Notes under the pieces: generated by a model
Database searches by the model: none
Told to the model about the DNA's origin: nothing
Seen by the model: only the letters and a program-made list of their open reading frames with translations
Part shown: one piece after another, positions 47,176-49,493 of the stretch
How positions within the stretch are numbered: the stretch's first letter is position 1
How the letters are laid out: the number at the start of each line of letters is the position of its first letter
Made by a program: the position numbers and the translations under genes
From: Escherichia coli
GTDB lineage: Bacteria > Pseudomonadota > Gammaproteobacteria > Enterobacterales > Enterobacteriaceae
Assembly: GCF_003334355.1 (NCBI RefSeq)
Contig: NZ_QOWP01000001.1
Reading direction: 5' to 3' (one strand)
DNA length: 64,000 bases

Positions 47176-47805
47176 ATGATTTTATTCGCCGACTATAACA
47201 CCCCTTATCTTTTCGCTATTTCCTTTGTACTGTTGATCGGCCTGTTAGAAATTTTTGCGCTTATCTGCGGTCACATGCTCTCCGGTGCTCTTGATGCACA
47301 TCTTGACCATTATGATTCCATAACCACAGGTCATATTAGCCAGGCACTTCTTTATCTCAATATTGGAAGATTGCCAGCTCTCGTCGTTCTCTGCTTACTG
47401 GCTGGTTTTTTTGGTCTTATTGGCATCCTGTTGCAGCATGCCTGCATCATGGTCTGGCAATCACCACTGTCGAACCTGTTCGTGGTTCCTGTCAGTTTAC
47501 TGTTTACGATTATTGCGGTGCATTATACCGGTAAAATAGTTGCGCCCTGGATTCCACGCGACCATAGTTCAGCTATTACAGAAGAAGAATATATTGGTAG
47601 CATGGCGTTAATTACCGGTCATCAAGCCACTTCAGGTAATCCCTGCGAAGGAAAACTCACCGATCAATTTGGCCAAATACATTATTTACTACTGGAGCCT
47701 GAAGAAGGAAAAATTTTCACTAAAGGAGACAAAGTGTTAATTATTTGCCGACTTTCTGCAACGCGATATTTGGCGGAAAACAATCCCTGGCCCCAAATAT
47801 TGTAA
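47176..47805 (+). CDS. yqiJ: NfeD-like inner membrane protein YqiJ
   Basis: 209-aa ORF with N-terminal hydrophobic helices; precedes the SPFH protein yqiK as in NfeD-SPFH operons. Confidence 0.85.
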
Positions 47806-47831
47806 TTTATTAATCAAAAGGAAATTTAATA

Positions 47832-49493
47832 ATGGATGATATTGTTAATTCTGTGCCCTCCTGGATGTTTACCGCGATTATTGCCGTATGCATTCTGTTT
47901 ATTATTGGAATTATTTTCGCCAGGCTCTATCGTCGCGCTTCGGCAGAGCAAGCTTTTGTTCGTACTGGTTTAGGTGGGCAAAAAGTGGTAATGAGCGGTG
48001 GCGCAATCGTGATGCCGATCTTTCATGAAATAATCCCCATCAATATGAATACTCTGAAGCTGGAAGTCAGCCGCTCAACCATTGATAGCCTGATTACGAA
48101 AGATCGTATGCGCGTCGATGTAGTAGTCGCTTTCTTTGTGCGGGTAAAACCTTCAGTAGAAGGGATTGCCACCGCTGCCCAGACGCTGGGGCAACGCACC
48201 CTGTCGCCTGAAGACTTACGTATGTTGGTTGAAGATAAATTTGTCGATGCCCTCCGTGCAACAGCTGCGCAAATGACCATGCATGAGTTACAGGATACCC
48301 GCGAGAACTTCGTGCAGGGGGTGCAAAATACAGTGGCAGAAGACCTGTCGAAAAACGGTCTGGAACTGGAGAGCGTTTCACTTACCAACTTTAACCAGAC
48401 CTCGAAAGAACATTTCAATCCGAACAATGCCTTTGACGCCGAAGGTTTAACCAAACTGACTCAGGAAACAGAGCGCCGTCGCCGCGAACGTAACGAAGTT
48501 GAACAGGATGTAGAAGTTGCGGTGCGTGAAAAAAATCGCGATGCGCTATCGCGCAAGCTGGAGATTGAACAGCAAGAAGCGTTTATGACGCTTGAGCAGG
48601 AGCAGCAGGTTAAAACCCGTACTGCCGAACAGAATGCACGTATTGCGGCTTTTGAAGCTGAACGTCGTCGTGAAGCAGAGCAGACACGAATTCTGGCTGA
48701 ACGACAGATTCAGGAAACAGAAATCGACCGCGAACAGGCCGTCCGCTCAAGAAAGGTTGAAGCTGAACGTGAAGTTCGCATTAAAGAGATCGAACAGCAG
48801 CAGGTCACCGAAATCGCTAACCAGACGAAATCGATCGCTATTGCCGCCAAATCGGAACAACAGTCCCAGGCAGAAGCGCGTGCTAATCTCGCACTTGCAG
48901 AAGCGGTAAGCGCCCAACAAAACGTAGAAACCACTCGCCAGACTGCCGAAGCCGATCGTGCTAAACAAGTTGCCCTAATCGCTGCCGCGCAGGATGCAGA
49001 AACCAAAGCGGTTGAACTGACCGTGCGGGCGAAAGCAGAAAAAGAAGCCGCAGAGATGCAGGCGGCGGCTATCGTTGAGTTAGCCGAAGCTACACGTAAA
49101 AAGGGTCTGGCGGAAGCAGAAGCACAACGTGCGCTGAACGATGCTATCAACGTACTTTCTGATGAACAAACCAGCCTTAAATTCAAACTGGCCTTGTTGC
49201 AGGCGCTGCCTGCGGTAATAGAGAAATCCGTTGAGCCGATGAAGTCAATCGACGGTATCAAGATTATTCAGGTCGATGGTCTGAATCGTGGCGGCGCTGC
49301 GGGTGATGCGAGTACAGGTAGCGTTAGTGGAGGAAACCTTGCAGAGCAGGCATTGTCTGCCGCCCTTTCTTACCGCACACAGGCACCGCTGATTGACTCC
49401 TTGCTCAATGAAATTGGTGTTTCAGGCGGCTCACTGACGGCATTGACTTCACCCTTAACCTCAACAACTCCCGTCGCCGAAAACGTAGAATAA
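47832..49493 (+). CDS. yqiK: SPFH/band-7 (flotillin-like) membrane protein YqiK
   Basis: 553-aa ORF; N-terminal membrane anchor, then a long Ala/Glu/Gln/Arg-rich coiled-coil region (...AFEAERRREAEQTRILAERQIQETEIDREQAVRSRKVEAEREVRIKEIEQQQ...). Confidence 0.9.
   Translation: MDDIVNSVPSWMFTAIIAVCILFIIGIIFARLYRRASAEQAFVRTGLGGQKVVMSGGAIVMPIFHEIIPINMNTLKLEVSRSTIDSLITKDRMRVDVVVAFFVRVKPSVEGIATAAQTLGQRTLSPEDLRMLVEDKFVDALRATAAQMTMHELQDTRENFVQGVQNTVAEDLSKNGLELESVSLTNFNQTSKEHFNPNNAFDAEGLTKLTQETERRRRERNEVEQDVEVAVREKNRDALSRKLEIEQQEAFMTLEQEQQVKTRTAEQNARIAAFEAERRREAEQTRILAERQIQETEIDREQAVRSRKVEAEREVRIKEIEQQQVTEIANQTKSIAIAAKSEQQSQAEARANLALAEAVSAQQNVETTRQTAEADRAKQVALIAAAQDAETKAVELTVRAKAEKEAAEMQAAAIVELAEATRKKGLAEAEAQRALNDAINVLSDEQTSLKFKLALLQALPAVIEKSVEPMKSIDGIKIIQVDGLNRGGAAGDASTGSVSGGNLAEQALSAALSYRTQAPLIDSLLNEIGVSGGSLTALTSPLTSTTPVAENVE

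What the first reader, a model, noticed from the sequence alone, without database searches (positions are those of the whole stretch)
47176..49493. NfeD-like (yqiJ) plus SPFH/flotillin-like (yqiK) membrane pair with a long coiled-coil region
This is a conserved two-gene operon of a membrane NfeD-type protein followed by a band-7/SPFH protein. YqiK carries an unusually long Ala/Glu/Gln/Arg-rich heptad-like stretch (roughly residues 200-430); its biased composition also creates long spurious antisense ORFs. The cellular role of this pair in E. coli is poorly defined, and it lies directly next to the ibs/sib repeats.
Basis: partly seen in the sequence, partly recalled or inferred. Interest (0 to 1): 0.35.

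Follow-up and report, generated by a model that had tools for sequence, protein, structure and literature searches.

The report
E. coli yqiJ-yqiK flotillin operon

Summary
yqiJ is 47176-47805 (209 aa) and yqiK is 47832-49493 (553 aa). The region is 100% identical to E. coli ATCC 8739 and other strains, where these genes are annotated.

- **YqiK:** it has Pfam Band_7/SPFH and Flot domains. Its nearest solved relatives, by profile and by fold, are human flotillin-1/2.
- **Pairing:** it is essentially invariant. 78 of 78 informative bacterial loci and 14 of 14 informative viral loci carry a yqiJ-type gene upstream of the flotillin.
- **The Ala/Glu/Gln/Arg-rich stretch:** it is real (59% AEQR, a 219-residue run without Pro or Gly). 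It shows no heptad periodicity. It resembles the charged side-by-side wall helix of solved flotillin cages rather than a classical coiled coil.
- **Antisense ORFs:** their lengths are what the protein's composition predicts.
- **Neighbours:** two Sib RNAs do flank the operon.

The most likely mechanism, inferred and not shown, is a cytoplasmic SPFH cage on the inner membrane with YqiJ as assembly partner. The pair was described by Hinderhofer et al. (2009). Novelty: already known. Interest is low.

The parts
46914..47175 (+). Intergenic region between glgS (minus strand) and yqiJ. It presumably holds the yqiJK promoter, which was not located. A GGAG ribosome-binding site sits at 47166-47169, 6 nt before the ATG.
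   Evidence: Sequence read. The sigma-70 consensus scan found no plus-strand match here. That fits, but does not prove, the very low native expression reported in PMC10434171 and PMC6788730.
47176..47805 (+). yqiJ CDS, 209 aa. Inner-membrane NfeD-type partner protein with three transmembrane helices and a C-terminal OB barrel.
   Evidence: ORF. Pfam YqiJ_N (res 8-115) and YqiJ_OB (res 139-198). RefSeq annotation. AlphaFold2 model with mean pLDDT 92.2.
47191..47550 (+). YqiJ membrane part (res 6-125). Long hydrophobic helices at 6-30, 68-94 and 100-125, with short helices at 35-60 between the first and the second.
   Evidence: Kyte-Doolittle hydrophobic segments 8-39, 56-94 and 96-119. AF2 helices H6-30, H35-47, H53-60, H68-94 and H100-125.
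47590..47781 (+). YqiJ C-terminal OB-fold beta-barrel (res 139-202), the NfeD-like domain.
47806..47831 (+). 26-nt gap between yqiJ and yqiK, with an AAGGA ribosome-binding site at 47818-47822. The spacing is that of an operon.
   Evidence: Sequence. In 76 of 78 informative bacterial loci the two genes are adjacent on the same strand, with apparent gaps of at most about 200 nt.
47832..49493 (+). yqiK CDS, 553 aa. Flotillin-family SPFH protein.
   Evidence: ORF. Pfam Band_7 and Flot. RefSeq 'flotillin family protein'. Present in 5425 of 5426 complete E. coli genomes.
47835..47927 (+). YqiK N-terminal transmembrane anchor (res 2-32).
   Evidence: Hydrophobic segment 4-36. AF2 helix 2-32.
47946..48407 (+). 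YqiK SPFH/Band_7 domain (res 39-192).
   Evidence: Pfam PF01145, E = 2.1e-18. A profile of 54 homologues aligns profile positions 40-184 to human flotillin-1 residues 12-154, E = 1.1e-8.
48447..49103 (+). YqiK long charged helix (res 206-424). This is the Ala/Glu/Gln/Arg-rich 'coiled-coil' stretch and the predicted cage-wall helix.
   Evidence: A 219-residue run without Pro or Gly, 38% charged, with i,i+4 opposite-charge pairs at z = 3.2. No heptad periodicity. AF2 gives helices 200-319 and 339-471, separated by a low-confidence break at 320-338.
49047..49421 (+). YqiK flotillin C-terminal domain (res 406-530). By alignment to flotillin-1 it holds the cap helix and the conserved 'DGIKIIQV' segment.
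   Evidence: Pfam PF15975, E = 1.8e-40. The second, low-scoring HMMER alignment stretch places profile positions 466-487 against flotillin-1 357-381.
49510..49544 (+). Intrinsic-terminator-like hairpin plus T-run, starting 16 nt after the yqiK stop codon.
   Evidence: 9-bp stem with 6 G-C pairs, followed by TTTTTTATATC. It also forms the first bases of the 375/376-nt ibs/sib tandem repeat.
48710..49261 (-). Antisense ORF of 183 aa inside yqiK. It is a by-product of composition, not a gene.
   Evidence: Its length lies within the distribution given by synonymous-codon shuffles; 21% of shuffles are at least as long.
48023..48454 (-). Antisense ORF of 143 aa inside yqiK, in the same antisense frame as the one above. 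Also a by-product of composition.

Best explanation
This is the E. coli yqiJ-yqiK operon. Two co-transcribed genes encode a flotillin-family SPFH scaffold (YqiK) and its NfeD-type membrane partner (YqiJ).

**What is shown here:**
- The gene identities and the domain content.
- The fold relationships of both proteins.
- The near-invariant pairing of the two genes.
- The composition and the non-heptad nature of the long helix.

**What is inferred from solved relatives** (the flotillin-1/2 44-mer, the QmcA-YbbJ complex of 26 heterodimers, HflK/C, prohibitin, erlin):
- YqiK is anchored in the inner membrane by its N-terminal helix, with its SPFH domain on the cytoplasmic face.
- Many copies pack their roughly 220-residue charged helices side by side into a barrel wall. 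The C-terminal Flot domains close the barrel.
- The result is a dome-shaped cage that fences off a patch of inner membrane.
- YqiJ sits at or in that patch with its three membrane helices. Its OB domain lies against the SPFH ring and promotes or stabilises assembly.

**Likely physiological setting:** membrane-stress handling. In about half of the related loci the pair lies directly downstream of a pspA homologue. E. coli carries the shortened two-gene form, expressed at very low level.
For: - **Identity:**
- **Domains:**
- **YqiK's nearest solved relatives:** flotillin-1 by profile (E = 1.1e-8) and flotillin-1/2 by fold (Foldseek E from 7.6e-13 to 7.7e-11 over 475-505 aligned columns). These rank ahead of prohibitin, erlin, HflK/C, stomatin and QmcA.
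- **YqiJ OB domain:** best matches are NfeD domains.
- **Operon signals:** a 26-nt gap with a ribosome-binding site and a terminator after yqiK.
- **Pairing:** 78 of 78 informative genome loci, 14 of 14 informative viral loci and 6 of 7 distinct distant YqiJ homologues.
- **Co-divergence:** identities of the two proteins to E. coli correlate across 91 loci, r = 0.86.
- **Helix properties:**, matching the description of the flotillin wall in PMC11260169.
- **Cage precedent with an NfeD partner facing the cytoplasm:** Tan et al. 2024, as cited in PMC13086221 and PMC12624060.
- **PspA link:** a PspA_IM30 gene lies directly upstream of yqiJ in 43 of 80 loci. PMC11237479 described this independently.
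- **Prior description:** the pair was described as an NfeD2/SPFH2 operon in PMC2636767.
Against: - No structure of YqiK or YqiJ exists; phmmer against PDB sequences finds nothing. The cage, its stoichiometry and the position of YqiJ are therefore analogies.
- The AF2 monomer of YqiK has only moderate confidence (pLDDT 72.5) and breaks the long helix at residues 320-338.
- YqiK is well below the NCBIfam FloT equivalog cut-off (87 bits against 700), so it is not an orthologue of the studied Bacillus FloT.
- Published deletion mutants show no growth, biofilm or stress phenotype, and the native protein is barely detectable (PMC10434171, PMC6788730, PMC2636767).
- E. coli has no pspA next to the pair.
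Confidence: 0.8

Rival explanations
1. The long Ala/Glu/Gln/Arg stretch is a classical heptad coiled coil. On this view YqiK dimerises or trimerises into a rod-like scaffold, rather than forming a many-subunit barrel wall.
For: The second half (res 336-447) has local a/d occupancy by Ala and hydrophobic residues of 0.58-0.75, against a background of 0.43-0.57. Older flotillin literature calls this region a coiled coil (cited in PMC11260169).
Against: There is no 3.5- or 7-residue periodicity above shuffles over residues 200-430. The first half is dominated by charged residues with a/d occupancy of only 0.33-0.50. Opposite charges are enriched at i,i+4 (z = 3.2). The rare natural indels are not multiples of 7. 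The solved flotillin complex shows side-by-side helices held by charge clusters and no heptads.
Confidence: 0.1
2. YqiJ regulates a membrane protease, the historical annotation of the NfeD/COG1585 group, and YqiK is its substrate or adaptor. The archaeal precedent is the long NfeD PH1510, which cleaves the stomatin PH1511.
For: One source names a YqiJ homologue 'membrane protein implicated in regulation of membrane protease activity' (P0018). The OB domain matches 3wwv, the C-terminal domain of PH1510. The PH1510/PH1511 precedent is cited.
Against: YqiJ has no ClpP-type protease domain. Only YqiJ_N and YqiJ_OB are found, and the 209 residues are fully accounted for by three membrane helices plus the OB barrel. 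No protease gene recurs among the neighbours in 80 loci.
Confidence: 0.06
3. In E. coli the pair is a decaying or functionless remnant of a larger pspA-linked module.
For: Expression is very low and deletion shows no phenotype. E. coli lacks the upstream pspA and the ~174-aa gene found in 43 and 37 of 80 loci. Truncated yqiJ products are common in databases, for example a 120-aa form on 573 contigs named for E. coli O145:H28, and a frameshifted yqiJ occurs in one Salmonella isolate.
Against: yqiK is present in 5425 of 5426 complete E. coli genomes, and 55 of 59 sampled full-length copies keep the exact 1662-nt length. The protein is 75-79% identical to those of Hafnia, Serratia and Paraburkholderia, which indicates strong purifying selection.
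Confidence: 0.04

Closest known systems
Prokaryotic SPFH2 (flotillin/reggie-like) with NfeD2 operons, as defined by Hinderhofer et al. 2009 (PMC2636767). That paper names E. coli YqiJ/YqiK and B. subtilis YuaF/YuaG (FloT).
   Same: It is this very gene pair. The gene order is the same (NfeD-type gene first), both have an N-terminal membrane anchor, an SPFH domain, a long helix and a Flot C-terminal domain, and the partner has three membrane helices plus an OB barrel.
   Different: Nothing differs for E. coli. Relative to Bacillus FloT, YqiK scores only 87 bits against the FloT equivalog model, whose cut-off is 700. It is a family-level relative of FloT, not its orthologue.
Human flotillin-1/flotillin-2 cage (PDB 9BQ2, 9L3G; PMC11260169)
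   Same: It is the best solved match by profile and by fold. Both have an SPFH domain, then a very long charged non-heptad helix, then a cap helix and beta-strand region.
   Different: YqiK has a true N-terminal transmembrane helix, where flotillins use hairpin and lipid anchors (anchoring as described in the abstract and membrane-interaction passages of PMC11260169). It is encoded as a single gene with no paralogous partner in the locus. It has a dedicated NfeD-type partner, which eukaryotes lack. Its Pro/Gly-free helix is about 219 residues against a 186-residue wall. Sequence identity is only 17-22%.
E. coli QmcA-YbbJ SPFH-NfeD complex (PDB 8Z5G; Tan et al. 2024)
   Same: It is an SPFH protein with an NfeD-type partner from the same organism, forming a cage that faces the cytoplasm. 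YbbJ is the top Foldseek hit for the YqiJ model.
   Different: QmcA is a stomatin-type protein with a short wall helix and 26 subunits. Its gene order is reversed, with qmcA upstream of ybbJ. YbbJ belongs to the NfeD family, to which YqiJ shows no detectable sequence link.
PspA-associated Band-7/flotillin plus YqiJ/YuaF operons (PMC11237479)
   Same: 43 of the 80 related loci found here have a PspA_IM30 gene directly upstream of yqiJ, and 37 have a further ~174-aa gene upstream of that. This matches the published CesT/Tir-like, PspA, flotillin, YqiJ neighbourhoods.
   Different: The E. coli window has the 'abbreviated' form, without pspA or the upstream gene. glgS and a fimbrial operon lie upstream instead.

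Membership tests
SPFH / Band 7 superfamily | An SPFH (Band_7, PF01145) domain | tested here: met
   Pfam Band_7, E = 2.1e-18, res 39-192. All top 50 listed Foldseek hits are SPFH-family proteins, including the major vault protein.
Flotillin family | A flotillin C-terminal domain (PF15975) after the SPFH domain | tested here: met
   Pfam Flot, E = 1.8e-40, res 406-530, covering model positions 1-124 of 124.
Flotillin family | Closer to flotillins than to other SPFH subfamilies | tested here: met
   The homologue profile hits only flotillin-1 among PDB sequences at E <= 0.01. Four of the five best Foldseek hits, including the top three, are flotillin-1/2 chains over 457-505 aligned columns; a prohibitin chain ranks fourth.
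Flotillin family | A long charged, non-heptad wall helix | tested here: met
   A 219-residue Pro/Gly-free run, 38% charged, with i,i+4 charge pairing at z = 3.2 and no heptad periodicity. Compare PMC11260169.
Flotillin family | Assembly into a large membrane-bound cage | not testable with these tools
   No solved structure exists, and only an AF2 monomer was made.
Bacillus FloT (NCBIfam NF058507 equivalog) | A score above the curated equivalog cut-off | tested here: not met
   87.4 bits against a cut-off of 700. YqiK is a family relative of FloT, not an equivalog.
NfeD family | A sequence match to Pfam NfeD (PF01957) or to a canonical NfeD protein | tested here: not met
   Pfam returns YqiJ_N and YqiJ_OB only. 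hhalign of the 76-sequence YqiJ profile against a PF01957 protein from L007 gives E = 0.18, probability 0.3%.
NfeD family | A C-terminal membrane-tethered OB-fold beta-barrel | tested here: met
NfeD family | An N-terminal part made of hydrophobic membrane helices | tested here: met
   Three hydrophobic segments and AF2 helices 6-30, 68-94 and 100-125. This fits the '3 hydrophobic stretches' description in PMC2636767.
NfeD family | Encoded in an operon with an SPFH gene | tested here: met
   78 of 78 informative genome loci, 76 of them adjacent, and 14 of 14 informative viral loci.
Classical heptad coiled coil | A 3.5/7-residue hydrophobic periodicity with a and d core positions | tested here: not met
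   Fourier power at periods 3.5 and 7 is not above shuffles, with the fraction of shuffles at least as high being 0.16-0.78. Natural indels are not multiples of 7.
Known anti-phage defence systems (PADLOC) | A match to a PADLOC model | tested here: not met
   No families for either protein at E <= 0.01.

The most novel reading that the evidence does not exclude
The length of YqiK's uninterrupted charged helix would set the size of a very large cage. Applying the published regression (subunits = 0.1782 x CC1 length + 10.22, PMC12624060) to a helix of 219-225 residues gives about 49-50 subunits, more than in any membrane-associated SPFH cage compared in that paper. The rare natural in-frame indels of -26 to +13 residues would then retune the cage by about -5 to +2 subunits. 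The same yqiJ-flotillin module, with a TelA-like gene downstream, is carried by jumbo phages of 380-543 kb. There it might be used to compartmentalise or protect host membrane during infection.
Probability: 0.2. Interest if true: 0.45.

Novelty: already known. Interest (0 to 1): 0.2.

Why it matters
As a finding in this window it is ordinary. It is a correctly identified, annotated and published E. coli operon.

The residual interest is general. YqiJK is one of the few bacterial flotillin-type SPFH/NfeD pairs in a model organism that still lacks both a structure and a phenotype. The comparative data gathered here suggest where a phenotype might be found:
- The pairing of the two genes is near-invariant.
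- YqiK is far better conserved than YqiJ.
- The ancestral operon appears to be linked to pspA.
- The pair is carried by jumbo phages.

These point to membrane damage or phage infection, ideally tested in a pspA-deficient background.

Tried and rejected
I used a YqiK alignment instead and searched the flanks with my own YqiJ HMM.
- **phmmer of both proteins against PDB sequences** found nothing. A 54-sequence profile was needed to reach flotillin-1.
- **NCBIfam** has no model for YqiJ and only a sub-threshold FloT hit for YqiK.
- **PADLOC and PHROGs** gave no hits for either protein. I therefore dropped a defence-system reading.
- **hhalign of the YqiJ profile against a canonical NfeD** was negative. 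The template was a single sequence, so this is a weak negative.
- **A global Fourier test for heptads** was negative.
- **Common length polymorphism of YqiK in E. coli.** The protein search lists lengths of 527-566 aa, which suggested this. An even sample of complete genomes shows 55 of 59 full-length copies at exactly 1662 nt, so the variants are rare alleles. I rejected the idea of widespread polymorphism.
- **The antisense ORFs as genes.** I rejected this on the synonymous-shuffle test.
- **The original QmcA-YbbJ paper** (PubMed 39181124) is not held. Its content is cited only second-hand.
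Full report

Yes. The ORF listing gives a 209-aa ORF at 47176-47805 and a 553-aa ORF at 47832-49493, both on the plus strand and exactly as reported. Window 46900-50300 is 100% identical to several E. coli chromosomes, including ATCC 8739, and matches all 5426 complete genomes in the collection. In the ATCC 8739 record the two ORFs are annotated yqiJ ('OB-fold-containig protein') and yqiK ('flotillin family protein'). They are flanked by yqiI and glgS upstream, and by two ibs toxin genes and hldE downstream. The window is therefore an E. coli chromosome and the finding is the yqiJK locus.

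**2. Domains**

YqiK has Pfam Band_7/SPFH (res 39-192, E = 2.1e-18) and the flotillin C-terminal domain Flot (res 406-530, E = 1.8e-40). NCBIfam gives only a sub-threshold match to the Bacillus FloT equivalog (87 bits against a cut-off of 700). YqiK is thus a flotillin-family protein but not a FloT orthologue.

YqiJ matches Pfam YqiJ_N (res 8-115) and YqiJ_OB (res 139-198), not NfeD PF01957. Neither protein matches any PDB sequence by phmmer.

**3. Is YqiJ 'NfeD-like'?**

I collected distant homologues; about 1000 clusters at 50% identity have E <= 0.001. I aligned 76 of them and obtained a confident AlphaFold2 model with mean pLDDT 92.2. The model has long hydrophobic helices at 6-30, 68-94 and 100-125, followed by a six-stranded barrel at 143-202.

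- Foldseek's best hit is YbbJ in the E. coli QmcA-YbbJ complex, 8z5g.
- A profile-profile comparison of the YqiJ family with a canonical PF01957 protein is negative (E = 0.18).

'NfeD-like' is therefore supported by fold, architecture and operon context, but not by detectable sequence similarity. Hinderhofer et al. 2009 reached the same conclusion. They named YqiJ/YqiK explicitly as an NfeD2/SPFH2 operon and reported NMR shifts for the YqiJ C-terminal domain (PMC2636767).

**4. The long Ala/Glu/Gln/Arg stretch**

Residues 200-430 are 59% A+E+Q+R, against 26% on either side, and hold two Pro/Gly in 231 residues. The run 206-424 (219 residues) has no Pro or Gly at all. The next longest such run among the 25 long ORFs of the window is 74.

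The stretch is not heptad-like:
- Hydrophobic periodicity at 3.5 or 7 residues does not exceed shuffles. Local a/d occupancy is only 0.33-0.50 in the first half and 0.58-0.75 in the Ala-rich second half.
- Opposite charges are instead enriched at i,i+4 (z = 3.2) and i,i+3 (z = 2.0).

This matches the solved human flotillin cage. [quoted passage not shown]

An AF2 monomer of YqiK, built from 54 diverse homologues, has pLDDT 72.5. It gives a TM helix at 2-32, an SPFH domain at 40-189 and helices at 200-319 and 339-471, with a low-confidence break at 320-338. I regard the break as a likely artefact of modelling a single chain, because that segment contains no helix breaker; this is inference.

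Foldseek ranks flotillin-1/2 chains (9l3g, 9bq2) first, over 475-505 aligned columns. They come ahead of prohibitin, erlin, HflK/C, stomatin and QmcA. The homologue profile hits only flotillin-1 among PDB sequences (E = 1.1e-8).

**5. Antisense ORFs**

The 183-aa (48710-49261) and 143-aa (48023-48454) minus-strand ORFs are real as open frames. I kept the YqiK protein fixed and shuffled synonymous codons. In that frame this gives a mean longest stop-free run of 158 codons (sd 51) against 185 observed, and 21% of shuffles are at least as long.

**6. Operon signals and neighbours**

- The gap between yqiJ and yqiK is 26 nt and holds an AAGGA ribosome-binding site.
- A 9-bp hairpin with a T-run at 49510-49534 starts 16 nt after the yqiK stop codon.
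- No plus-strand sigma-70 consensus match lies upstream of yqiJ. This fits the reported near-undetectable native YqiK (PMC10434171, PMC6788730) but does not prove a cause.
- Two SIB_RNA matches lie at 49717-49866 and 50092-50241 on the minus strand. They sit within a 375/376-nt tandem duplication that begins at 49511. The yqiK terminator hairpin is therefore the first element of the ibs/sib repeat, and the hairpin recurs at 49886-49910.

**7. Comparative context**

A pattern scan of one genome per GTDB species with a YqiK alignment returned 80 loci with YqiK at 47-98% identity. Going by the record titles, they come from Gamma-, Beta- and Alphaproteobacteria, Desulfobacterales, Myxococcota, Spartobacteria and Mesoflavibacter.

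- **Pairing.** An HMM of the YqiJ family finds a same-strand upstream YqiJ ORF in 78 of them. The other two are cut by contig ends. In 76 the genes are adjacent. Starting instead from seven distant YqiJ homologues, six have a flotillin directly downstream. One has a TraG/TrwB-like ATPase instead.
- **Conservation.** In all 91 loci where both could be compared, YqiK is more similar to its E. coli counterpart than YqiJ is (mean 58% against 34%). The two identities correlate with r = 0.86.
- **Recurrent neighbours.** A PspA_IM30 protein (Pfam E = 1e-16) lies directly upstream of yqiJ in 43 of 80 loci. A ~174-aa protein with no Pfam hit lies upstream of that in 37 of 80. This reproduces the neighbourhoods described in PMC11237479 and that paper's suggestion that abbreviated operons may work with a PspA encoded elsewhere.

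E. coli has the abbreviated form.

**8. Mechanism**

Shown here: identity, domains, fold relationships, gene pairing and helix properties.

Inferred from the solved SPFH cages: YqiK is anchored by its N-terminal helix and oligomerises through lateral packing of the long helices and the C-terminal domain. This would form a dome on the cytoplasmic face of the inner membrane. YqiJ would act as an integral-membrane assembly partner. The closest precedent is QmcA-YbbJ, 26 heterodimers protruding into the cytoplasm, cited in PMC13086221 and PMC12624060. Those sources also report the proposal that NfeD proteins promote SPFH oligomerisation.

A published regression links CC1 helix length to subunit number, y = 0.1782x + 10.22 (PMC12624060). 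Applied to 219-225 residues, it would predict about 49-50 subunits. This is an extrapolation and not a result.

Function remains undefined. Deletions give no growth, biofilm or stress phenotype (PMC10434171). Unpublished work cited in PMC2636767 reports no stress induction and altered cell morphology on overexpression. One cited study suggests roles in motility and ampicillin tolerance. yqiJK overexpression or deletion had no effect in a 3-hydroxypropionate import screen.

**9. Rivals**

I considered three rivals, all judged unlikely for the reasons given in their entries: a classical coiled-coil rod, a protease-regulator role for YqiJ, and a decaying remnant. PADLOC finds no defence-system model for either protein.

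**10. Verdict**

The pair is already known (Hinderhofer 2009 and later work). Interest is low.

Noticed in passing
window 49510-49534 and 49886-49910 (+); repeat units 49511-49886 and 49887-50241: The terminator hairpin directly after yqiK is the first element of the 375/376-nt ibs/sib tandem repeat, and an almost identical hairpin recurs one unit later. yqiK therefore appears to use a terminator that belongs to the duplicated toxin-antitoxin unit.
   Followed up: partly
window 48650-49110 (YqiK res ~275-425); proteins P0266-P0375: Rare E. coli and Salmonella alleles carry in-frame indels confined to the long helix: +13/-13 (AERRREAEQTRIL), -22, -9, -26, +16, +5/+10 (AEKEA) and +2 residues. 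Short DNA microhomologies lie at matching spacing for at least the 9-residue deletion: GCAGAAGCG at 48870 and 48897, 27 nt apart. They are rare: 55 of 59 evenly sampled full-length copies are exactly 1662 nt.
   Followed up: yes
loci L025-L092 (43 of the 80 loci L013-L092); also L002 799-1500: A PspA_IM30 gene lies directly upstream of yqiJ in 43 of 80 species loci. A ~174-aa gene with no Pfam match lies upstream of that in 37 of 80. The E. coli window lacks both. This agrees with PMC11237479.
   Followed up: yes
L093-L108 (IMG/VR contigs, seven of them 380-543 kb); L109 = Sinorhizobium phage Phosso PV764938.1 351709-361154; L004 (145-kb contig): The yqiJ-flotillin pair is carried by putative and isolated jumbo phages. 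It is present in 14 of 14 informative viral loci. In phage Phosso the gene upstream of the SPFH gene is a YqiJ-family member (hhalign E = 1e-30). A TelA-like 'tellurite resistance' gene (phrog_5890) follows two genes downstream in both Phosso and L095. SPFH genes in jumbo phages have been noted before (PMC7760394), but neither passage of that paper that mentions SPFH refers to a YqiJ-type or NfeD partner.
   Followed up: partly
L021, L022, L025, L027-L029, L031 (Paraburkholderia/Burkholderia) against L020, L024, L026 (Hafnia, Serratia): Betaproteobacterial Paraburkholderia YqiK is 75-77% identical to E. coli YqiK. That is as close as YqiK from the enterobacterial genera Hafnia and Serratia (78-81%) and much closer than gammaproteobacterial Dyella (55%). 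This suggests lateral transfer of the pair, as Hinderhofer et al. proposed for SPFH genes in general.
   Followed up: no
proteins P0032, P0086, P0087, P0120 and others: Many truncated YqiJ products (115-160 aa) are on record for E. coli and Salmonella, for example a 120-aa form on 573 contigs named for E. coli O145:H28. A frameshifted yqiJ is reported in a Salmonella Enteritidis isolate with no phenotype (PMC6137255). yqiJ may be dispensable or pseudogenised in some lineages.
   Followed up: no
L007 5001-7453 and 8561-9927: One metagenomic contig carries both pair types within 3 kb. A YqiJ-flotillin pair is on one strand, and a Band_7 plus PF01957 NfeD pair (stomatin/QmcA type) is on the other. 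The two are distinct paralogous systems.
   Followed up: no
L011 617-3769; L012 1952-3349: One distant YqiJ homologue (P0244) is followed by an 803-aa TraG-D_C/TrwB-like ATPase rather than by a flotillin. It is the only exception among the seven distant homologues examined.
   Followed up: no
window 47832-49493 against 5426 E. coli genomes: yqiK nucleotide identity to this window falls to about 93% within E. coli; 1993 genomes lie in the 90-95% band. From general knowledge, this seems more divergent than a typical E. coli core gene. Three sampled copies differ in length by 1 nt, which could be frameshifts or assembly errors.
   Followed up: no
record NZ_CM129877.1 (hit H1): In E. coli strain PCP06021 the match to window 46900-50300 is split into two pieces, and an IS150-family element is annotated under the match along with yqiJ and yqiK. 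This is an IS insertion within the matched region in that strain.
   Followed up: no
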